64,000 bases of DNA from Naegleria gruberi (GCA_000004985.1 GG738855.1), one strand, 5' to 3'; positions 54 through 60,404 are shown, numbered from the stretch's first letter. Notes: generated from the sequence alone by a model not told the origin. A program made the numbers and translations.

Positions 54-1337
54 ATGGTAACCAATGATGAAACTGATTGGGAAATTATTGTAAAGAATAG
101 AAATGCTCAACAAATAGCACGTATGGCCTCTGCTACTGGTTTAGTATTTCATAATAATCTATCCTCCTCACCATCAACTACTTCATCTTTATCGTCTTCA
201 AATCTATCAAATCAACATCATCACTGTGTTACCACTCCAAAATTGGATACATCTTCTTTAAATGAAACATCATTCAGAAAGAACTTTATCACTCGACATA
301 GTTCTGATCAGAGAATTGCAATCTCTAGTAATAATAGTAGTGGTAGTACATGTAATGAAGAGTCCACATTTGGTACTGGGTCAAGCAAGCAGAGAAGCAA
401 GACAAGTTTTTTGTGGGGAAGATCTTTAGAGAGGAAGAATTCTGCAAACAGCAATACTTGTATGCCTCCAATAGAGGATTCTAAGAATGCTCAACTCGAT
501 ATTTCGGCCTCTTCAATAGAGAGTAGTGCCACCAATGTTGCATCAGATGAGAGCTTTTTAGAGTTTTTACAGAGTGTAGATTGTCGAATGAATGTTATTT
601 CGATAGAGTCAATTGATTCTGCCTCTACACAAGACACATCATCCAAAGAGACTTTGAAAAAGTCCAAATTTTGGGATAGACTCAAGATTATCAAAAAGGC
701 AATTAAGAAACAGCTTATGGAAGAAGAAAAACCTAACAGCACCCAACAAACACTTCACACTCAACAACCATCTAAACACTCGAGAACCAATAGTATTACA
801 AGTAATCCACATACACTTGATTTGGATTGTAAAAGTACATCATCTTCCTCTCTGACAAGCGTTAGTGATGAAGACAAGTATACGGTTGTTATTACTAAAC
901 CAGCAATAGTCTCTAATAGTGCAATTAGATCTGCTGAGGATGAAATGAGACATTGTCTTAATGATCCAATTTGTTTACAATTATTTGATGAATTTTGTTG
1001 TCAGGAATGCTCTCAAGAGAATTTACTTCTTTGGAAGGAGCTCAATAAGGTCAAGACTAATTTCAAGAAACTTTCAGATAAGAGAAGAAGCAAAACCCTT
1101 CGAACCATTCACTCGAAATTCTTCTCTGAGAAGAATGAAAATTTCGATGTAAATGTTAGTGGTCGAACTAAAGTTCAAATAGAGGAACAAGCAAATAGCA
1201 AGAGAGTTAGTTTAGCATCTGGCGCACACGTTTTAAATAGCTTACAACGAGATTGTATCAACAATTTATGTGACAGCTTTTCGAGGTTTATTCTCACTGA
1301 GGATTACAAACTATGGAAACAAAACTTTGATAGGTAA
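54..1337 (+). CDS. RGS-domain protein with Ser/Thr-rich N-terminus
   Basis: Single 427-aa ORF. The C-terminal ~120 aa match the RGS fold signature (…DPICLQLFDEFCCQECSQENLLLWKELNKVK…SFSRFILTEDYKLWKQNF). The N-terminus is low-complexity Ser-rich, typical of dictyostelids. Confidence 0.75.
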   Translation: MVTNDETDWEIIVKNRNAQQIARMASATGLVFHNNLSSSPSTTSSLSSSNLSNQHHHCVTTPKLDTSSLNETSFRKNFITRHSSDQRIAISSNNSSGSTCNEESTFGTGSSKQRSKTSFLWGRSLERKNSANSNTCMPPIEDSKNAQLDISASSIESSATNVASDESFLEFLQSVDCRMNVISIESIDSASTQDTSSKETLKKSKFWDRLKIIKKAIKKQLMEEEKPNSTQQTLHTQQPSKHSRTNSITSNPHTLDLDCKSTSSSSLTSVSDEDKYTVVITKPAIVSNSAIRSAEDEMRHCLNDPICLQLFDEFCCQECSQENLLLWKELNKVKTNFKKLSDKRRSKTLRTIHSKFFSEKNENFDVNVSGRTKVQIEEQANSKRVSLASGAHVLNSLQRDCINNLCDSFSRFILTEDYKLWKQNFDR

Positions 1338-37134: not shown

Positions 37135-40100
37135 ATGCCGTCATTCCTCTCCAAGGGCAACAAACAACAACAGAGGGCCAGATCTTCTTCATCATCCAGT
37201 TACTACAACAGCCGAAATAAACATGATGGTGAATTACGTTTTCATGATGATGACGATGATATTGACAATTTCTTGGAACCTTCACATGACGTTCAACAAC
37301 ATCACGAAGCGGAATCAAAGAGAAAAAGTATTACTCTTGCAGCACAATCAGTACCTGCCATAGTTTCAAATTCTGTTATTGGATGGCTTTCTGCTGTATC
37401 ACTCGTTGTTCACTTGATAGTTTTAATAGCTTTTATTGCACTACCTCTCTTTTTAATATTTATTCATTTTGATTTTTGTTTCAAATGTGGAGGAGCAGAG
37501 TTTTTAATAATATTTCTGATGAGTTTGTTTGGAGTGGGATTACTCTTGTTTGGAATGCTGTATCCTCTCCGACAATATATTATTGAAAGGAGGAAACAAT
37601 CAAAGTTAACACAAGAAGATATCATACAACAACAATTGGAAGCACCTCTAGAAGATATGGAAGATGGTGAACATGGTATTGATTTTGATGAATATCATCA
37701 TGATAATCAATTTGATGATGCACCAGCGGATCGTGGTTTGACAAGTGGAAAAATTTCAATCTCCCTCGCTAGAGCAAATAGTAATTCTGGTTGGTTTAAG
37801 AGATTTTTCGATATTTCAGAGTTTTTAAAAACAAGTAAGAAGGAAAAGGCTGCATGTTGTGTTTTCTCTACTTGTAGTATTGCTTCCTTCATTTGGTTGG
37901 CAGTCACAATCATTGTATTTTTAACATTTATTTTCTTTGTGAGGTCAACTAGAGTTAACAAATCTGGACACATTTATTCATCAGTTATTTCTGGTAAAAA
38001 GGTTAGGATTGAGAGAGAACCTACAGGTATGGTTCACGTTGCTGCTGAAAATATTAATGACCTTGCTTTTGGTCAAGGTGTTGCTGCTGCTCAAGACAGA
38101 CTCTTCCAAATGGAACTCTACAAGATTATTGGTAAAGGCTCATTGGCAGAGATTGTTGGTTCGGATGCTCTCATTTTGGACAAGCTTTCACACGTTCTAG
38201 GTTTAAGAAAGTATGCTGAGGAGAATTTAGCAAATATTCCAAAGGATATAGTTTCTATTATTCAATCCTATGTTGACGGTATTAATGCATATATTGAATC
38301 AGGTCCTGCTCTGAGTGCAGAATTTTCTCTTGTTGGTTTCAAACCAACTAAATGGGAAGTTATTGACGTTTTGACATTTGAGAAATTATTTGCCTTACAA
38401 ATGACTTACAACTACATTTTTGAATTGGCAAGATTAGTTGTTTTGGAGAGAGGTGCTACATTGGAGAGAGTAACAGAGCTTTCATCACCAATGTATGCTA
38501 ATTATTTCACAGTTTTCAATAGGGAAGAATTAAAGATGAATATCACTGATGAGGAGGCTGAAGAAATTGAGAAAAAGTTGTGGGATCAATCAGGTGCTTA
38601 TATTCCATCTTCCACAAATTCTGGTGACGAACATGTTCATAATTTTGGAGAAATGCTGTATGAGAAGCTATCAAATGACAAGTACCTCAAATTACTTTTA
38701 CCAACCAAGAAGGGAAGTAGCAGAGGTTCAAATAATTGGGTTGTCGGCAAGAGTATTTCCGATTCCTCAAGTGGTTACAATGTTAACGATCCTCATTTGG
38801 ATATTATGGCTCCCGTTATTGTTCAACAAATTCACTTAAAGATTGTTAAGGATATTACTGCTGTTAATGATATTACATCAGTCAAGATGGAAGAGAATAC
38901 ATTTGAATTGATTGGAGCAAGTTTCCCTGGATTACCAAGTGTTGGTATTGGTAGATCAGCTTTTATTTCTTGGAGTATTACCTTGTCTTTTAGTGATGTT
39001 CAGGATTTGTATGTATTGACTCCATGTCCTGATCAACCAGACACTCACTACATGGTAGATGGTAAACCAGAAGAATACAAGATTAGAAAGGTTAATATCA
39101 AGGTTGCTGGTGAAGAGAATGTGGAATTGGTAGTTAAAGAAAGTAGATTCGGTCCTGTTATTAATGACCCATTGATTACCATTGCTCATGCAGATGTAAA
39201 GACTCAAAAGCCAATGGCTCTCAAATGGACTGCTCACTTACCAAATGATACTTCTATTATGGGTCTGCAACAAATGACTAATGCAAAGACTATGGATGAG
39301 TTCGCCAAGGCTACAAGGTTACTCACAGCTTTACCTTTTAGCATTGTTTTCACTGATAGAAATGGTAATATTGGTTATTCGTTGACAGGTACAACACCAA
39401 TTAGACAACAAGGACATACTGGCATGTTTGCAATGCCTGGTGATATTTCCAAATATGAATACAAGGGATACGCCACTGGTGATCAAATAACAGTTATTAA
39501 TCCACCAAAGGGTTATATTATTACAGCCAACAACAGAATCACACCTGGTGGATTCCCTTATATTGTTAGCAACGATAACGAATTTGATTATAGAGCTAAA
39601 AGAATTGATGAAATGATTAGAAATGTTTTAGATGTAGAAAATAGAAAGATCACACAAAAAGACATGATAGAGGCACAAAATGATGTAAAGAGTTTGATCT
39701 ATGAAGAGCTCAAGTTTGTACTCAGAAATATTTCTCAATCACTCAAGGAAGATCCATATGCCAAATATGTTAATGGTTTGCTCAATGATTGGGACGGAAA
39801 GATTCTTAGAGAATCTACTCATGCCACTTTATTTGAATTTTTCCTTACAAATCTTATCAAATTACCTGAGCATGAAGTCGGAAAGAAGTACTGGAATGAT
39901 TTCTTCTATCTAAGAAGAGCTTTATCCAGTAATGGCGATATTGCTTGCACAGTCCACAGAAAGCAAACTTGTCAAGAGTTTGCAGTGGCCACTTTTAAGG
40001 AAACTGTTGACATTTTATTGAAACACTTTGGACAAATTCCTCCTTGGAAAGTTGTTCACTATATTGATGCATCCCATCCATTATTGGGATTGACACCACT

Positions 40101-40437
40101 TTCTTGTTTATCTGACAGAAAGATTCACTCCAATGGTGGCACATACACTGTGAATATCAACAATTTTGTCTATGATAAGGTTACTGAAACAACTATTCCA
40201 ACTGTAAATGCAGCAGTTTATAGACAAATTATTGGTGGAGGTGAATTCTCTAATTCTAAAATTGAAGGACAAGATGATTTATGGATCTCACCACTTGGAC
40301 AAGATGGAAATATGTTTTCAGAACACTATGACAACTTTATTGAAAAGTATATTGAGGGATCCTATCTCCCACTCACCACTGAGGCCAAGTACTTGTCTGA
40401 CGTTTTTGAAATTCTTCCAACAGAAAAGTCGGATTAA
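37135..40437 (+). CDS. Penicillin amidase / acyl-homoserine-lactone acylase family Ntn-hydrolase with an N-terminal low-complexity plus TM extension
   Basis: 1100-aa ORF. The predicted autoproteolytic N-terminal nucleophile lies in …KKGSSRGSNNWVVGKS…NDPHLD…. These are the SNxW and NDPHL motifs of PGA/PvdQ-type acylases. The ~300-aa N-terminal region has two hydrophobic helices. Confidence 0.8.
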   Translation: MPSFLSKGNKQQQRARSSSSSSYYNSRNKHDGELRFHDDDDDIDNFLEPSHDVQQHHEAESKRKSITLAAQSVPAIVSNSVIGWLSAVSLVVHLIVLIAFIALPLFLIFIHFDFCFKCGGAEFLIIFLMSLFGVGLLLFGMLYPLRQYIIERRKQSKLTQEDIIQQQLEAPLEDMEDGEHGIDFDEYHHDNQFDDAPADRGLTSGKISISLARANSNSGWFKRFFDISEFLKTSKKEKAACCVFSTCSIASFIWLAVTIIVFLTFIFFVRSTRVNKSGHIYSSVISGKKVRIEREPTGMVHVAAENINDLAFGQGVAAAQDRLFQMELYKIIGKGSLAEIVGSDALILDKLSHVLGLRKYAEENLANIPKDIVSIIQSYVDGINAYIESGPALSAEFSLVGFKPTKWEVIDVLTFEKLFALQMTYNYIFELARLVVLERGATLERVTELSSPMYANYFTVFNREELKMNITDEEAEEIEKKLWDQSGAYIPSSTNSGDEHVHNFGEMLYEKLSNDKYLKLLLPTKKGSSRGSNNWVVGKSISDSSSGYNVNDPHLDIMAPVIVQQIHLKIVKDITAVNDITSVKMEENTFELIGASFPGLPSVGIGRSAFISWSITLSFSDVQDLYVLTPCPDQPDTHYMVDGKPEEYKIRKVNIKVAGEENVELVVKESRFGPVINDPLITIAHADVKTQKPMALKWTAHLPNDTSIMGLQQMTNAKTMDEFAKATRLLTALPFSIVFTDRNGNIGYSLTGTTPIRQQGHTGMFAMPGDISKYEYKGYATGDQITVINPPKGYIITANNRITPGGFPYIVSNDNEFDYRAKRIDEMIRNVLDVENRKITQKDMIEAQNDVKSLIYEELKFVLRNISQSLKEDPYAKYVNGLLNDWDGKILRESTHATLFEFFLTNLIKLPEHEVGKKYWNDFFYLRRALSSNGDIACTVHRKQTCQEFAVATFKETVDILLKHFGQIPPWKVVHYIDASHPLLGLTPLSCLSDRKIHSNGGTYTVNINNFVYDKVTETTIPTVNAAVYRQIIGGGEFSNSKIEGQDDLWISPLGQDGNMFSEHYDNFIEKYIEGSYLPLTTEAKYLSDVFEILPTEKSD

Positions 40438-41238
40438 GATTCGCACATCTTTAGCCAAACAGGTAAAGGATTTGTTTATTTTGAGCAATCAAAGTTTAAC
40501 GGTGAATACCTCAACTGCAAGATGGGTTATTTTACTTGATGCATTCATTAGAAGAGATTAATTTAATTCAAACAATCATGCATCTTTGGGTCATAAACAT
40601 AAAGCTGATTTACCATATTTACTGATTAACATCGTTCTAAAGTTACTGTTCGACTATCTCTGTATTACCCATAAATGGACATTATTAATCTCTCACTTTT
40701 GAATTACCCTTTTCGAATAACATTGTTTAAATTCTTCGAATAATTTATTATTATTGGTGAGGCAATGGCAAAGAAATTGAGTGTTTCTATTGTGGCTACT
40801 GAAGAAACAAATAGGGAGGTTTCGTCCAAATACTTGGTAAGGTCGTTACTGGTCTTGTCCCACTTGTTAGAAACAAGAAGAAGGAAAAGACGAAAGTATA
40901 CGAAATGGGAGATTCCACTAATGTTGTATGGACGAATGGATGTATGAATTTTGAAATGTATCTGAAAGGAAACTATTCTGATAGTTTGGCTTTACATAGA
41001 GAATTTTCTGAAAAACATCCAGAAGATAAACCAACTCTACAGCTCATCAAAAAAAATCTTAAAGAAACTTCCAAAAATGTTAATGAAACACGGGATGACC
41101 TGAACTGGTCAAAGCTAGTCAACTTCTGCTTGTCACTGATATTTCCTTCCCAAGTCATTGAACTGAAGTGAGATAAACTTGCCGAAACTCATCACGGATC
41201 GCTTCAAAACAATACGAAAAATTGCCTCATCATTGAAC

Positions 41239-43462
41239 ATGCATTCATTATCGGCAATATTCATCCTACTTTTTTACACTATTCTATTCGCAAGGAATTT
41301 ACAGTTCTTTTACTTGTTTTCACATTTCATCAACCGATGCAAAAGTTTGCTCTTCTCGAGGGTCATGCCTTTCTACCAACAATTGCACATGTTCTACAGG
41401 TTTCTACGGAAGTAATTGTCAGTGGAGTGATGATCCAATACTAAACGAACCTACTTTGGATTTATTTGGTTTAGGAATTGGAATTGTTAGACGAAATGTT
41501 TCGAATCCAACCTATGATTTGATGATTTCTGCAACTAAATTAACTTTTCTTGATTCTAAATTGAGAGAATTGATGGGATGTTCATTGGAAAGTGAAAATT
41601 GTTATTCTGTAATTGAATTTAAATGGTCAATTAGTATGAATGCAATTAGTTTGGATTCTTCTAATGGATTTGTGATGGCAAATTTATCCCAAGTTGATGT
41701 ATTGACATTTTCTCCAGTCATTCAATTTCAAAGTAGCAAAGGTTTGATTTCTGGCAGTCAGTTGATTACTTCTATTGAACTAAAGACGAAATATTCTAAC
41801 GTTAACATGAGTACTAAAGGATGTACTCTAANAAGGAACATCACATTGGAAATTGAAAATACAGTAACTTGTCTCTGTTCACACACAACCATGTTCTCTA
41901 CCTTTATTGAACATAACAGTACATTTGCTGTCAAAGTCAAACAACAGCTGTCAACGCTATATTATGCTCAAATAGCTTTTGGTGTATTCTATTTTATCAT
42001 TTCCTTAATAATATTAATTCTATTATTTGCTTTTAGAAAGGAACAACCAATTTCAAGTAGATTAGCAACTCCATTTATGGGAATGATAGCCCTATTGGTA
42101 GAAAGTTGTTTAATTTACATTACTCAGAGAGGAATTTTAGTGAATCAACTGAAATCTAGTAATAATCAAATGTGGGAGAGTGGAGATAATGATTCCAATA
42201 TTATTGCAAATATTGTTACAATTTTTGTAAACTCTTTAAATTTAACAGCAATATTTTGCTATGTTATTCAAGTGGTTAGATTTGAATTGATGAAATTCAT
42301 GTACAAATTAATTCACAAGACGAAAGGAAATGAGTCTAAAAGTGATATAGTATTGAAATCTATTAGAATATCAACATCAACAAGTTTATTCTTACTCTTG
42401 ACAACTTTATTTATGAGTTTTAATCTGGTTTATTGGACAATTTGGGTTGTTTTGAGACGAATTAATGTAATTGAGCCTTCAACTTACACTTACATTGTTT
42501 CCATTTCGTATACTGTCATAATATTCTTCTTGAGTTTAGTAATTGCAACTGTATTAGTATTCGATTTTATTATAACAATTAAAGAAAAGAAAGAAGAGAA
42601 GAAGAATGAGCCCACAGATTCAACAGTGAAAGAAAATCTGGTAAAGAAATCAATCAAGATGAAGAATTCACTCTCAAAGGTTTATGATTTTTTCATTAGT
42701 TTAGATGAGCCACTCTATTTCAGAGTCGAAATGATTCTCTACCTAATATGTTTCGTATTTCTAATAGTGAATCAAGTGATTGGACTCATTGGATTACCAT
42801 ATCGATTCATAGACGAGGAAAATTACAAGACAGCTCTCCAATATGATGTAATTTCATTTATATTTGAAGTTTTATACGTTTTCACCTATATTCTAGTATT
42901 TGGTGGATATGCTTTGTTGATCCTACTCATTTACAAAGTAAAGATTTGGAGAAAATTTTCAAAGAATGGAAAATCAAAGCAGGATGATGGAATGTTGAAG
43001 AATAAGGAACTTTTACTTGTGATTAGGAATGAGGAATCGTACGAATCATTTGAAAAGTTTTGTGAAAAGGAATTTTCCTTAGAGAATCTTTATTTACATT
43101 CAATATTGGAAAAACATTCAAAAATAGTGAATGGAGAGACATTTGAAGGGTTATCAACTCTACTTAATCAAATATTTGAAGGATTCATCCAATCAGGAGC
43201 AACAAATGAAGTGAATATTCCAAACAGTTGTAGAACAAAGATTGTCAACCTCCACAAAAAATATGGTTTTGAAAAGAAGGATTCAGATTTAAAGAATGTT
43301 GATTTAGAAGAAGTGAGACAGGCATTCTTTTCATTAGTTCAACAAGTATTTGTCAATCTTGGTGACACCTTCTCTCGATATTCTCTAACAACTGAATGGA
43401 AAGTTTTCAAAAAGGCAATTGAATTGAAAGAACACATTACGGAGAAAGCAAACTTGTATTAG
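41239..43462 (+). CDS. Adhesion-GPCR-like receptor: signal peptide, tenascin-like EGF, GPS/GAIN-like motif, 7TM and a C-terminal RGS domain
   Basis: The signal peptide MHSLSAIFILLFYTILFA is in one frame. The reading frame then shifts by +1 into …TDAKVCSSRGSCLSTNNCTCSTGFYGSNCQ… and continues into ORF 41456-43462. A GPS-like motif (…VTCLCSHTTMFSTFIE) lies just before seven hydrophobic helices. The C-terminal RGS domain reads …ESYESFEKFCEKEFSLENLYLHSILEKH…AFFSLVQQVF…. One N sits at 41832. Confidence 0.65.
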
Positions 43463-45151: not shown

Positions 45152-46090
45152 TTACTTCTTTCTGAAAGGTGGAGAGATTCTATTGGAGGGTCTCTTACTT
45201 CTTCTGCCCCTTACTGGTGTGATGATAACTTCCTCTGATTCGAGTGTGGAAGAAATAGAAGCAACCTTAATGACATCATCCCCATCGGAAGAAGTAGTCT
45301 TTTTGCTTGATATTGGGACGGATTCTGATGGTAAAACATCATTGTTTGCCGAGTCTGTTTCTTGTGACATTTCATCAGAAGGAGACAATTCTTCTTCAGC
45401 TGGTAATGAATTGCTTGTATTTTGGAATGATTCTGATGGTAAAACATCATTTGTTTCTTGAGAGATTTCTTCAAAAACCTCATCATCAAAATTGGCAGCA
45501 TCTTTATCACATCCTAAAACACGAGAGGATAGATATTTAGGATCAATAGGATACTTGCATTGAGTGAATGGAGTTTCTGTAGATAGAAATCCACCAGTTG
45601 CTTGCCATTCAACAACAATTTTGTTACCTTGTGTTAAAGAAAGTACTTTAGCCTTTCTCTTTCTGATCTCTCCGTCATTAATCTTAATTGCCTTTGCATA
45701 TGGAGGCTTGTCAACCATTACCAGTTGATTGATTTTGAAGGTAGATTCTACATTTGCTTTGTGTTTGTTGACTCTTTCGGCTTGCTTTTTAAATCTTTTT
45801 TGGACCGTTTCAACAATTAAAGCAGTGTCAATAATGATTGAGCACTTCTCACGTTCATCACAAAAATCAGATATTCTACTTGGTGCCACCTTATCAAACA
45901 AGTCTTGAGGAGTGAACTTTGTAACACTATGTACCGTGTTATTATGTTTTAAGACAACTTCCTTCAAATGGTCAACCCAAGTTCCAGCGTCGTTTTCATC
46001 AACAATGGATCGAATTTTGACCTCTATGCCATCTTTGGTAGTTCTGTTGCACCTTTCAGCCAATCCGTTTTCTGAGGGACTGTAAGGGTT
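45152..46090 (-). pseudogene. 5'-truncated integrase-domain C-terminal fragment of an LTR retrotransposon
   Basis: The reading frame …SPSENGLAERCNRTTKDG… is the integrase catalytic-core signature GxxER.NRTL. It is followed by a Ser/Glu-rich tail with an internal duplication (NDVLPSES…). No RT lies upstream. The fragment starts at a perfect hairpin at 46069-46116. Confidence 0.55.
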
Positions 46091-46673: not shown

Positions 46674-47627
46674 ATGGTCAATTCTCATAGTTATCCATTT
46701 CGGTGCGAAGATGGAGAAGGTAAATTCATAGAATTACATTTATCATTCTCCGAACCCGAACATCTAATTACTCTGTCTTGTACCTACAATTATCACAAGT
46801 ATTTGTTTACTGAAGAAACATCATCTGTAATTCATTTTAAATACTACAAAACATGTTTGATGAACAATGCCATTGATTGCAAGGTTTCTGAGGACAACAT
46901 TACCTTGGTTGTGAAGGAGTGTTCTGATATTGGGTCCAGTGTCAAATTTATTCTTAACAAACAAGAAAGGGATGCTGATGAAAAATTGAATACCATGTTA
47001 GAAGTCATGATGAAAGATATCGCACAATTGAAGGGAATGCTTTGGTTTACTGATAGAGATTTGAATAAGTTCTCCGAGAAATACATTACCAATTGGAATA
47101 GTGTATTTATTAGAGTCAATGGTTCACCTATTCTAGGCAAAATATTCACAAATACTTACTCAAAGAAAGAATTTTATGTTAATACCACTGGTTGTAAAAT
47201 CAAAAAGGATTCAATCAATTCTCCATTATTTAAATCTTATCGTGAATCAGATCTGGAACCTATTATCATTTACTTTAAACAAAAAGTGGATTTCTCAAGA
47301 ATTGAAATTTCTGTTAGTGTTCATCAATCAAACAATCAAGACTTGGTCAAGGTTTATGTTTTTGGAGTAATGAAACCTCAGGGAGTGATTAGAAAATTTG
47401 ACATTGAATTAATTAATGAAAATCTAAGCTCTCATTACCAAGAGCCAAAGGAAGATTGGTTTATTATGCCTAAATTGGAGAAGATTTCAGAACAAGAGTG
47501 TAAGCTAAATGGATTAGTTTCAATTCATTTCGATTCGAATAACGCATATGATGGAATTGGAATTGCAGTAAGAAACCAACGAAACGATATGTTCAACTAC
47601 ACCATTCCTCTTTTAAGAATATATTAA
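46674..47627 (+). CDS. Paralogue of the secreted-family gene 29337-30476; probably lacks its first exon or is a partial copy
   Basis: 317-aa ORF sharing FKYYKTC and EVMMKDIAQLKGMLWF blocks with 29337-30476. No signal peptide is present in the ORF. Confidence 0.55.
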   Translation: MVNSHSYPFRCEDGEGKFIELHLSFSEPEHLITLSCTYNYHKYLFTEETSSVIHFKYYKTCLMNNAIDCKVSEDNITLVVKECSDIGSSVKFILNKQERDADEKLNTMLEVMMKDIAQLKGMLWFTDRDLNKFSEKYITNWNSVFIRVNGSPILGKIFTNTYSKKEFYVNTTGCKIKKDSINSPLFKSYRESDLEPIIIYFKQKVDFSRIEISVSVHQSNNQDLVKVYVFGVMKPQGVIRKFDIELINENLSSHYQEPKEDWFIMPKLEKISEQECKLNGLVSIHFDSNNAYDGIGIAVRNQRNDMFNYTIPLLRIY

Positions 47628-60020: not shown

Positions 60021-60404
60021 AGGGTTTGGGTTTGGGTTGGGTTGGGTTTGGGGTTGGGGTTGTGTTGGGGGGTTGGGGGTTTGGGTTTGGGTTTGGGTTT
60101 GGGTTTGGGTTTGGGTTTGGGTTTGGGTTTGGGTTTGGGTTTGGGTTTGGGTTTGGGTTTGGGTTTGGGTTTGGGTTTGGGTTTGGGTTTGGGTTTGGGT
60201 TTGGGTTTGGGTTTGGGTTTGGGTTTGGGTTTGGGTTTGGGTTTGGGTTTGGGTTTGGGTTTGGGTTTGGGTTTGGGTTTGGGTTTGGGTTTGGGTTGGG
60301 TTGGGTTTGGGTTTGGGTTTGGGTTTGGGTTTGGGTTTGGGTTTGGGTTTGGGTTTGGGTTTGGGTTTGGGTTTGGGTTTGGGTTTGGGTTTGGGTTTGG
60401 GTTT
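60021..60404. repeat. (GGGTTT)n telomere-like array, about 60 units; degenerate at the left and perfect toward the N-gap
   Basis: The sequence reads agggtttgggtttgggttgggttgggtttggggttgggg… and then becomes perfect gggttt hexamers up to the gap at 60405. Confidence 0.85.

What the first reader, a model, noticed from the sequence alone, without database searches (positions are those of the whole stretch)
41239..43462. Adhesion-GPCR-like architecture fused to an RGS domain (EGF, GPS, 7TM, RGS)
A single reading frame joins a tenascin-like EGF module, a GPS-like motif (…CLCSHTTMFSTFIE…), seven hydrophobic helices and a clear C-terminal RGS domain. 7TM-RGS fusions are known in plants and fungi as a self-contained GPCR plus GAP. 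An adhesion-GPCR-type ectodomain with GPS in front of such a fusion is unusual. It would couple ligand or adhesion sensing directly to G-alpha GTPase acceleration. The signal peptide sits in a different frame from the EGF module, so an apparent 1-nt frameshift lies near 41300.
Basis: partly seen in the sequence, partly recalled or inferred. Interest (0 to 1): 0.7.

Follow-up and report, generated by a model that had tools for sequence, protein, structure and literature searches.

The report
Naegleria GPS–7TM–RGS receptor-like gene
This is a gene of the amoeba Naegleria gruberi for a membrane protein with an EGF module, a worn-down adhesion-receptor cleavage motif, seven membrane helices and a G-protein "off-switch" (RGS) domain. 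It belongs to a large family already described in the sister species N. fowleri, so it is real but ordinary for this organism.

Summary
One open frame (41237..43462) encodes an EGF module, a CLCSHTTMF GPS motif, seven hydrophobic helices and a C-terminal RGS domain. A signal peptide (ATG 41239) sits one base out of frame.

The organism is Naegleria gruberi, not a dictyostelid. The annotated protein (523 aa, 100% identical) starts inside the GPS motif, so the public model lacks the ectodomain.

The architecture is not unusual here. An exhaustive search found about 70 full-length relatives in N. fowleri, N. gruberi, Willaertia and metagenomes. All carry CxCxH(T/A)TxF, seven TM helices and a C-terminal RGS tail. 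Bosch et al. 2022 (PMC9283941) described 28 such "7TM RGS" proteins in N. fowleri, with GPS, EGF and lectin modules. They showed GAP activity for three of the RGS domains.

This copy is a reduced member. Its ectodomain is about 215 aa, only the last ~70 aa of GAIN-B are recognisable, and the first GPS cysteine and tryptophan are missing. It also has a 5' frameshift and lies 16.6 kb from a telomere-like repeat.

Verdict: new member of a known kind, low interest.

The parts
41239..41292 (+). Signal-peptide-like start (MHSLSAIFILLFYTILFA), in the frame offset by one base from the rest of the gene
   Evidence: Translations. Relatives P0129 and P0123 have a signal peptide directly upstream of the homologous EGF start.
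41270..41275 (+). T6 homopolymer run, the candidate site of the 1-nt indel. Removing one T joins ATG 41239 to the EGF frame.
   Evidence: the corrected CDS gives a 740-aa ORF with one terminal stop. The exact position of the indel between 41239 and about 41305 is inferred, not shown.
41315..41419 (+). EGF-like module (aa 27-61 of frame A, six cysteines)
   Evidence: Pfam EGF_2 21.6 bits against cut-off 22.1. 45-58% identical to EGF repeats of family members, E about 1e-10.
41432..41674 (+). Ectodomain stretch (aa 66-146) with no recognisable domain. It begins with a remnant of the 'N.PT..[FY]G[LI]G' motif that follows the EGF in relatives.
   Evidence: Family GAIN-B HMM scores aa 66-193 at 1.5 bits, inside the range of 200 shuffles. 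AlphaFold pLDDT is below 50. Motif match.
41675..41896 (+). Remnant of GAIN subdomain B plus the GPS motif (aa 147-220), ending in CLCSHTTMF (41870-41896). It lacks the first GPS cysteine and the tryptophan.
   Evidence: 35.7 bits, E 4e-13 against the family HMM built without the window. Alignment A4: 29 of 29 relatives have C-x-[YF]-x...W, the window does not. Pfam GPS 12.5 bits.
41832..41832 (+). Ambiguous base 'n' (codon 199 = ANA), a sign of low sequence quality in this stretch
41882..41890 (+). H216-T217-T218, the position equivalent to the H-L|T/S autoproteolysis site of adhesion GPCRs
   Evidence: H and the second T are invariant across the alignment. H-T-T occurs in 97 of 142 motif instances and H-L-T in the metazoan-type hits. 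Cleavage itself was not tested.
41891..41893 (+). ATG used as the start of the public 523-aa gene model, which therefore begins inside the GPS motif
   Evidence: P0001 is 100% identical to 41891..43459.
41888..41926 (+). Stachel-like strand TMFSTFIEHNSTF (family consensus T-x-F-[SA]-x-F-[LIV]-E)
   Evidence: Position counts. The comparison with the adhesion-GPCR tethered agonist T-x-F-x-x-L-M comes from established knowledge, not from a test here.
41921..42967 (+). Seven-transmembrane domain. AlphaFold helices are at aa 229-265, 278-307, 318-361, 382-408, 414-457, 495-523 and 527-577, with a long lysine-rich third cytosolic loop.
42977..43447 (+). RGS domain (aa 581-737; Pfam match aa 597-713)
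   Evidence: Pfam RGS 31.1 bits against cut-off 23.9. PDB RGS5 and RGS16 hits. Foldseek TMt 0.6-0.78 to RGS16, RGS9, RGS8 and RGS4. E612, S614, E616, N617, N660, D710, T711 and R714 are conserved family-wide.
43460..43462 (+). Stop codon TAG

Best explanation
The locus is a Naegleria gruberi paralogue of the heterolobosean GPS-7TM-RGS family, the "7TM RGS" proteins of Bosch et al. 2022.

The encoded protein has an extracellular N-terminus: signal peptide, one EGF module, about 80 aa of unassigned sequence, and a shortened GAIN-B/GPS remnant ending in H-T-T. A GPCR-fold seven-helix bundle follows, then a cytosolic RGS domain.

Most likely mechanism (inferred). The protein is a receptor-like GTPase-activating protein. 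The membrane-anchored RGS domain speeds up GTP hydrolysis on one or more of the many N. gruberi G-alpha subunits. An event at the ectodomain or helix bundle (ligand binding, adhesion or shedding) changes that GAP activity or removes the protein from the membrane, as proposed for plant AtRGS1.

Shown here: the domain order, the topology, membership of the family, and conservation of the G-alpha-contact residues of the RGS domain.

Shown by others, for three N. fowleri relatives only: RGS-domain GAP activity and G-alpha binding.

Inferred: everything about regulation by the ectodomain.

This copy is a reduced member. Its ectodomain is about 215 aa against 700-2000 aa in relatives. The signal peptide is one base out of frame in the assembly, most simply through an extra T in a T6 run (sequencing error or real mutation).
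For: Organism and public model: (100% identity to an N. gruberi predicted protein).

Single ORF.

Domains.

Family: an exhaustive HMMER search with a GPS+7TM profile that excludes the RGS gave 83 hits below 1e-30. About 73 are full-length, each with a 140-260 aa C-terminal tail and nearly all with CxCxH(T/A)TxF. Pfam finds RGS in 27 of 28 members and GPS in 24 of 28. Named members are N. fowleri, N. gruberi and Willaertia magna. The best BLASTP hit is 45% identical over 662 aa to an N. fowleri 2632-aa protein, E 8e-166.

GAIN homology at family level: ADGRL3 6e-13, plus ADGRG1, ADGRE5, ADGRF1, latrophilin-1, CELSR1 and ADGRD1.

Topology: positive-inside rule met and six N-x-S/T sequons in the ectodomain.

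N-terminus: signal peptide followed by the same EGF start in P0129 and P0123, E 7e-17.

Literature: PMC9283941 reports 28 N. fowleri 7TM RGS proteins, many with GPS, EGF and lectin modules. The RGS domains of 7TM RGS2-4 act as GAPs on Nf G-alpha 2, 3, 5 and 7. PMC8584482 reports 44 G-alpha subunits in N. gruberi.
Against: No expression or protein data for this gene were available.

The signal peptide is out of frame in the assembly, so as written the gene has no in-frame start with a signal peptide.

The GAIN remnant lacks the first GPS cysteine and the tryptophan that all 29 aligned relatives keep. The ectodomain was not foldable with confidence (pLDDT 56).

The gene lies 16.6 kb from a telomere-like repeat, a region where decaying paralogues are common.

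GAP activity and any link between ectodomain and RGS are untested for this protein and for every member of the family.
Confidence: 0.75

Rival explanations
1. The locus is a decaying subtelomeric paralogue (a pseudogene or a gene on its way to being one). A large-ectodomain family member lost most of its ectodomain, half of its GPS signature and its reading frame at the signal peptide. The intact 7TM-RGS frame then reflects recent decay rather than function.
For: The frameshift between signal peptide and EGF lies where relatives have an uninterrupted signal peptide plus EGF. This is the only one of 30 aligned sequences lacking Cys1 and Trp of the GPS. aa 66-146 have no detectable homology to the family GAIN region. 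The ectodomain is about 215 aa against 700-2000 aa in relatives. A (GGGTTT)n telomere-like array lies 16.6 kb downstream.
Against: A 741-codon frame is fully open in AT-rich DNA. Every family-invariant residue of the GPS core, TM6 and RGS is retained. Codon-usage score is as good as in neighbouring genes. The ambiguous base at 41832 shows imperfect sequence quality nearby, so a 1-nt homopolymer error is plausible.
Confidence: 0.2
2. It is a true adhesion GPCR (class B2). After GPS autoproteolysis its tethered agonist activates G proteins as a GEF, and the fused RGS domain acts as built-in negative feedback.
For: Family-level GAIN homology to solved adhesion GPCR ectodomains. The strand after the H-T-T site has the hydrophobic spacing of a Stachel. 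GPCR fold of the helix bundle.
Confidence: 0.1
3. The gene has an upstream first exon (40905-41167) spliced to 41305 through a 137-nt GT-AG intron (GTGAGA...TTTACAG). The signal-peptide-like ATG 41239 then lies inside the intron and there is no frameshift.
For: The intron scan finds this in-frame GT-AG solution. ORF 40905-41171 has a coding-like codon score, 0.17 against -0.46 and -0.99 in the other two frames.
Against: The resulting N-terminus has no signal peptide, although the ectodomain carries a disulphide-rich EGF and six glycosylation sequons. The 88-aa exon has no Pfam hit and no significant similarity to any family member. Relatives show a signal peptide directly abutting the same EGF start.
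Confidence: 0.08
4. The RGS part belongs to a separate transcript or gene from the 7TM part.
For: None found. A separate soluble RGS gene does exist elsewhere in the window (54..1337), so stand-alone RGS genes occur in this genome.
Against: There is no stop codon between TM7 and the RGS domain. The public model already joins them. About 70 relatives have the same fusion.
Confidence: 0.01

Closest known systems
Naegleria fowleri '7TM RGS' proteins (Bosch et al. 2022, J Biol Chem, PMC9283941), with annotated N. gruberi paralogues such as D2VYI3 (NAEGRDRAFT_74131) and D2V990 ('GPS domain-containing protein')
   Same: Same order of modules: EGF or other adhesive modules, GPS motif CxCxHTTxF, seven TM helices, C-terminal RGS. 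Identity is 37-47% over the whole GPS-7TM-RGS part. The RGS contact residues are conserved.
   Different: This copy has by far the shortest ectodomain. It has one EGF and no REJ, RCC1, NHL or lectin modules. Its GAIN is truncated and lacks Cys1 and Trp. Its 5' end is frameshifted. The public model omits the ectodomain.
Metazoan adhesion GPCRs (class B2: ADGRL3/latrophilin, ADGRG1, ADGRE5 and others)
   Same: An extracellular adhesive module, then GAIN/GPS directly before TM1. The C-x-C-x-H-x-T-x-F core matches. The family profile matches solved GAIN domains. The membrane domain has a GPCR fold.
   Different: The 7TM is not detectably 7tm_2. The -1 residue is Thr rather than Leu. The cytosolic tail is an RGS domain, so the expected output is G-alpha deactivation rather than activation. 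In this copy the GAIN domain is incomplete.
Plant 7TM-RGS protein AtRGS1, and the Trichomonas 7TM-RGS proteins
   Same: Seven TM helices with a C-terminal RGS domain, acting as a membrane GAP for G-alpha subunits (from PMC9283941 and PMC3971589).
   Different: AtRGS1 has a short N-terminus without GAIN/GPS or EGF. Homology of the 7TM parts was not tested here, because no AtRGS1 sequence or AlphaFold-database library was available.
Polycystin-1 / PKD-REJ family
   Same: Several relatives (P0002, P0013, P0045) combine REJ and GPS modules as polycystin-1 does.
   Different: This gene has no REJ match. There is no PLAT domain after TM1, and it has seven rather than eleven TM helices.

Membership tests
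Heterolobosean GPS-7TM-RGS family (Naegleria '7TM RGS') | Full-length collinear similarity of GPS, 7TM and RGS to known members | tested here: met
   BLASTP 45% identity over 662 aa to the N. fowleri protein P0005, E 8e-166, and 46% to N. gruberi P0006. The annotated product of this gene, P0001 (aa 219-741 of the window frame), scores 635.8 bits, but the A2 query profile includes this gene's own GPS+7TM, so that score is partly circular; the independent support for membership is the BLASTP similarity above.
Heterolobosean GPS-7TM-RGS family (Naegleria '7TM RGS') | Seven transmembrane helices, N-terminus outside, C-terminus inside | tested here: met
   Hydropathy, AlphaFold helices and the K+R distribution. 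The topology is predicted, not measured.
Heterolobosean GPS-7TM-RGS family (Naegleria '7TM RGS') | C-terminal RGS domain above Pfam's curated threshold | tested here: met
   31.1 bits against 23.9.
Heterolobosean GPS-7TM-RGS family (Naegleria '7TM RGS') | CxCxH(T/A)TxF motif just before TM1 | tested here: met
   CLCSHTTMF at aa 212-220. These columns are invariant in alignment A3.
Heterolobosean GPS-7TM-RGS family (Naegleria '7TM RGS') | GAP activity of the RGS domain on a Naegleria G-alpha | not testable with these tools
   Shown only for N. fowleri 7TM RGS2-4 (PMC9283941).
Adhesion GPCR (class B2) | Complete GAIN domain (subdomains A and B, about 320 aa) directly before TM1 | tested here: not met
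   Only aa 147-230 match the family GAIN-B/GPS HMM, and aa 66-193 score within the shuffles. There are only about 150 aa between the EGF and the GPS motif. At family level GAIN homology is present.
Adhesion GPCR (class B2) | GPS motif with four cysteines and two tryptophans, above the Pfam threshold | tested here: not met
   Pfam GPS 12.5 bits against 22.5, covering profile positions 17-43 only. Cys1 and Trp are absent. Relatives pass at 22-43 bits.
Adhesion GPCR (class B2) | Secretin-like 7TM (Pfam 7tm_2) | tested here: not met
Adhesion GPCR (class B2) | Autoproteolysis at H-L|T/S and tethered-agonist activation | not testable with these tools
   The sequence is H-T-T. H and the +1 T are conserved. 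No biochemical data exist.
RGS domain (PF00615) | RGS fold and G-alpha-contact residues (equivalents of RGS4 S85, E87, N88, N128, D163, R167; numbering recalled from memory) | tested here: met
   Foldseek TMt 0.6-0.78 to RGS-G-alpha complex structures. FSLEN, EVNI and DTFSR align with RGS5 and RGS16 and are conserved family-wide.
EGF-like domain | Six-cysteine EGF pattern above the Pfam threshold | tested here: inconclusive
   EGF_2 21.6 bits against 22.1, just under the threshold. The six cysteines have EGF spacing, and E is about 1e-10 to EGF repeats of relatives that pass Pfam strongly.
Plant-type 7TM-RGS (AtRGS1) | 7TM plus C-terminal RGS | tested here: met
   This is architecture only.
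Plant-type 7TM-RGS (AtRGS1) | Sequence or fold homology of the 7TM region to AtRGS1 | not tested
Polycystin-1 / PKD-REJ | REJ module, GPS, TM1, PLAT, then ten more TM helices | tested here: not met
   No REJ or PLAT hit, and seven TM helices.

The most novel reading that the evidence does not exclude
The heterolobosean family may be an old, independent marriage of a GAIN/GPS ectodomain with a non-class-B GPCR-fold bundle and an RGS output. It would be an 'inverse adhesion GPCR', in which shedding of the N-terminal fragment or exposure of the Stachel switches a built-in GAP instead of a GEF. The window gene would then be a naturally minimised member (one EGF plus a stump of GAIN-B without the first disulphide). 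It would either no longer cleave itself, making it a constitutive or differently gated form, or it would show how little of GAIN is needed. That would push the GAIN-7TM pairing back towards the last eukaryotic common ancestor.
Probability: 0.15. Interest if true: 0.55.

Novelty: new member of a known kind. Interest (0 to 1): 0.22.

Why it matters
The practical gain is a gene-model correction. The public N. gruberi protein (523 aa) begins inside the GPS motif and hides an EGF-GPS ectodomain and a probable signal peptide.

Biologically, the gene adds an unusually small member to a family already known from N. fowleri. That family is thought to let amoebae with dozens of G-alpha subunits couple surface cues to G-protein shut-off.

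The family-level result may interest people studying the origin of adhesion GPCRs: there is real GAIN homology but no detectable 7tm_2 homology. That result concerns the family, not this locus, and the architecture itself is already published.

Tried and rejected
1. Intron rescue of the frameshift. A scan of all GT..AG introns of 20-500 nt found that ATG 41239 can reach the main frame only through a 55-nt intron (41345-41399). That intron would delete most of the EGF module. I rejected it because the EGF is homologous to EGF repeats of relatives.

2. Upstream exon 40905-41167. Its codon score is coding-like, but it has no homologues and yields no signal peptide. It is kept as a minor rival.

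3. Looking up the annotated protein in assemblies for transcript evidence. Nothing is on record.

4. AlphaFold model of the ectodomain alone with a trimmed alignment. pLDDT was 56 and the Foldseek matches were meaningless, so there is no fold evidence for or against a GAIN-like domain in this copy.

5. Foldseek against the AlphaFold database, to find AtRGS1-like or Trichomonas relatives. The library was not available.

8. An early note placed the ambiguous base at 41813. The correct position is 41832.

Full report
**What is in the sequence.** Frame A of the + strand is open from 41237 to the stop at 43460-43462, which is 741 codons. The only blemish is one ambiguous base at 41832. Its codon is ANA, which cannot be a stop.

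Reading along the frame:
- An EGF-like six-cysteine module lies at aa 27-61 (41315-41419).
- About 150 aa of ectodomain follow, with six N-x-S/T sequons.
- The motif CLCSHTTMF lies at aa 212-220.
- Seven hydrophobic segments follow.
- A C-terminal RGS domain closes the frame.

Pfam scores:

| Family | Score (bits) | Curated cut-off (bits) |
|---|---|---|
| RGS | 31.1 | 23.9 |
| EGF_2 | 21.6 | 22.1 |
| GPS | 12.5 | 22.5 |
| any 7TM family | no hit | – |

An ATG at 41239 opens a textbook signal peptide (MHSLSAIFILLFYTILFA) in the frame offset by one base.

**Origin and public model.** The window is Naegleria gruberi, not a dictyostelid. A 523-aa "predicted protein [Naegleria gruberi]" is 100% identical to 41891..43459. 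That model starts at the Met inside H-T-T-M-F, within the GPS motif, so the public annotation lacks the whole ectodomain.

**The family.** I built a profile of GPS plus 7TM that excludes the RGS domain and searched 1.84 billion representative proteins exhaustively.
- The search gave 269 hits, 83 of them below 1e-30.
- About 73 cover the whole profile. Each has a further 140-260 aa C-terminal tail, and nearly all carry C-x-C-x-H-(T/A)-T-x-F.
- Pfam finds RGS in 27 of 28 sampled members and GPS in 24 of 28. Their ectodomains carry EGF, REJ, RCC1, NHL, PKD or lectin modules.
- Named members come from N. fowleri, N. gruberi (for example D2VYI3, and D2V990 "GPS domain-containing protein") and Willaertia magna. 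The rest are unnamed environmental assemblies.
- The window protein is 37-47% identical to these over 550-660 aa.

**What is published.** Bosch et al. 2022 (PMC9283941) describe 28 "7TM RGS" proteins in N. fowleri. They state that a number carry GPS motifs, EGF-like repeats and lectin domains "reminiscent of the adhesion GPCRs". They show that the RGS domains of 7TM RGS2-4 are GAPs for, and bind, particular Nf G-alpha subunits. De Mendoza et al. 2014 (PMC3971589) list 7TM-RGS architectures in many bikonts. N. gruberi is reported to have 44 G-alpha subunits (PMC8584482).

**How adhesion-GPCR-like is it?**

*At family level the ectodomain relationship is real.* A 28-sequence profile matches solved adhesion-GPCR ectodomains over about 250-340 profile positions that cover GAIN-B, GPS and TM1. 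ADGRL3 scores 6e-13, ADGRG1 6e-10 and ADGRE5 6e-9, and ADGRF1, latrophilin-1, CELSR1 and ADGRD1 also match. The weak tail of the exhaustive search consists of true GAIN+GPS+7tm_2 proteins.

*The membrane domain is a different matter.*
- No member hits 7tm_2 or any other Pfam 7TM family.
- hhalign of a 66-sequence 7TM-only alignment against 7tm_2 segments gives probability 0.2%.
- The AlphaFold model has pLDDT mostly above 85 in the bundle and the RGS, and pTM 0.66.

The bundle therefore has a GPCR fold of unassigned class. The residue before the putative cleavage site is Thr in this family (H-T|T) and Leu in the metazoan-type hits. The following strand, T-x-F-[SA]-x-F-[LIV]-E, keeps the hydrophobic spacing of a tethered agonist.

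**This copy is a reduced member.**
- Its ectodomain is about 215 aa, against 700-2000 aa in relatives.
- A family GAIN-B/GPS HMM built without the window recognises only aa 147-230 (35.7 bits, E 4e-13). aa 66-193 score 1.5 bits, inside 200 shuffles.
- In a 30-sequence alignment it is the only sequence lacking the first GPS cysteine and the tryptophan. It has KTKYSNVNMS where the others have C-[RK]-[YF]-W-[DN]-E...W.
- An AlphaFold run on the ectodomain alone was of low confidence and its fold matches were meaningless.

Whether a GAIN-like fold or autoproteolysis survives here is therefore open.

**The 5' end.** No GT-AG intron links ATG 41239 to the EGF frame without deleting the EGF.

Two relatives, P0129 and P0123, have a signal peptide directly followed by C-F-x-x-S-S-x-D-x-x-V-C-S..G.C...C.C..G-[FY]-Y-G-S-x-C...N-x-P-T...[FY]-G-[LI]-G. 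This is the same as the window's frame A (37-39% identity, E 7e-17). Signal peptide plus EGF is therefore the ancestral arrangement, and the assembly carries a 1-nt indel.

Deleting one T of the T6 run at 41270-41275 gives a clean 740-aa ORF. I cannot tell a sequencing error from a real mutation. The nearby 'n' argues for the former. The telomere-like (GGGTTT)64 array 16.6 kb downstream and the eroded GPS argue for decay.

An alternative first exon (40905-41167, with a 137-nt intron) is possible. It gives no signal peptide and has no homologues.

**Mechanism.** The RGS domain keeps the residues that contact G-alpha in R4-type RGS proteins: FSLEN, EVNI and DTFSR. These are conserved across the family. 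The domain sits on the cytosolic side by the positive-inside rule.

The best-supported reading is a receptor-like GAP that shuts off G-alpha-GTP at the membrane, with the ectodomain or bundle modulating that activity or the protein's residence at the surface. The GAP step is shown only for N. fowleri relatives. The regulation step is inference by analogy with AtRGS1.

**Verdict.** This is a new, reduced and possibly decaying member of a known kind. The useful products are a corrected gene model and the family-level finding of GAIN homology without 7tm_2 homology.

Noticed in passing
window 54..1337 (+): A separate 427-aa ORF with a serine-rich N-terminal part and a C-terminal RGS-like region (…CQECSQENLLLW…DVNVSG…CDSFSRF…). 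It is a soluble RGS protein with no TM segments.
   Followed up: partly
window 60022..60404, then Ns to 64000: A telomere-like array of about 64 copies of GGGTTT (96% matches), followed only by Ns. The window appears to end at a chromosome or scaffold end, so the gene studied is subtelomeric, about 16.6 kb away.
   Followed up: partly
window 40905..41171 (+): An 88-aa ORF just upstream of the gene, with coding-like codon usage (0.17 against -0.46 and -0.99 in the other frames). It has no Pfam hit and no significant homologue among the family. It ends at a good splice-donor-like site (AAG|GTGAGA).
   Followed up: partly
window 37135..40437 (+): A 1100-aa ORF with a penicillin amidase domain (Pfam 537 bits) preceded by about 290 aa containing hydrophobic segments. 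This is the upstream neighbour.
   Followed up: partly
window 48088 onward (about 200 N): An assembly gap of Ns. Together with the single 'n' at 41832, it shows this part of the scaffold is draft quality.
   Followed up: no
window 45152..46063 (-) and 46674..47627 (+): Two ORFs of 303 and 317 aa downstream of the gene, with no Pfam match. Their function is unknown.
   Followed up: partly
proteins P0129 (2274 aa) and P0123 (2953 aa), from the representative search: Large proteins that share the window's N-terminal module (signal peptide, EGF, 'N.PT..YG.G'). They match only the GPS and TM1 part of the profile, and too little sequence follows for a 7TM plus RGS. They may be a GPS single-pass or truncated branch of the family.
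   Followed up: no
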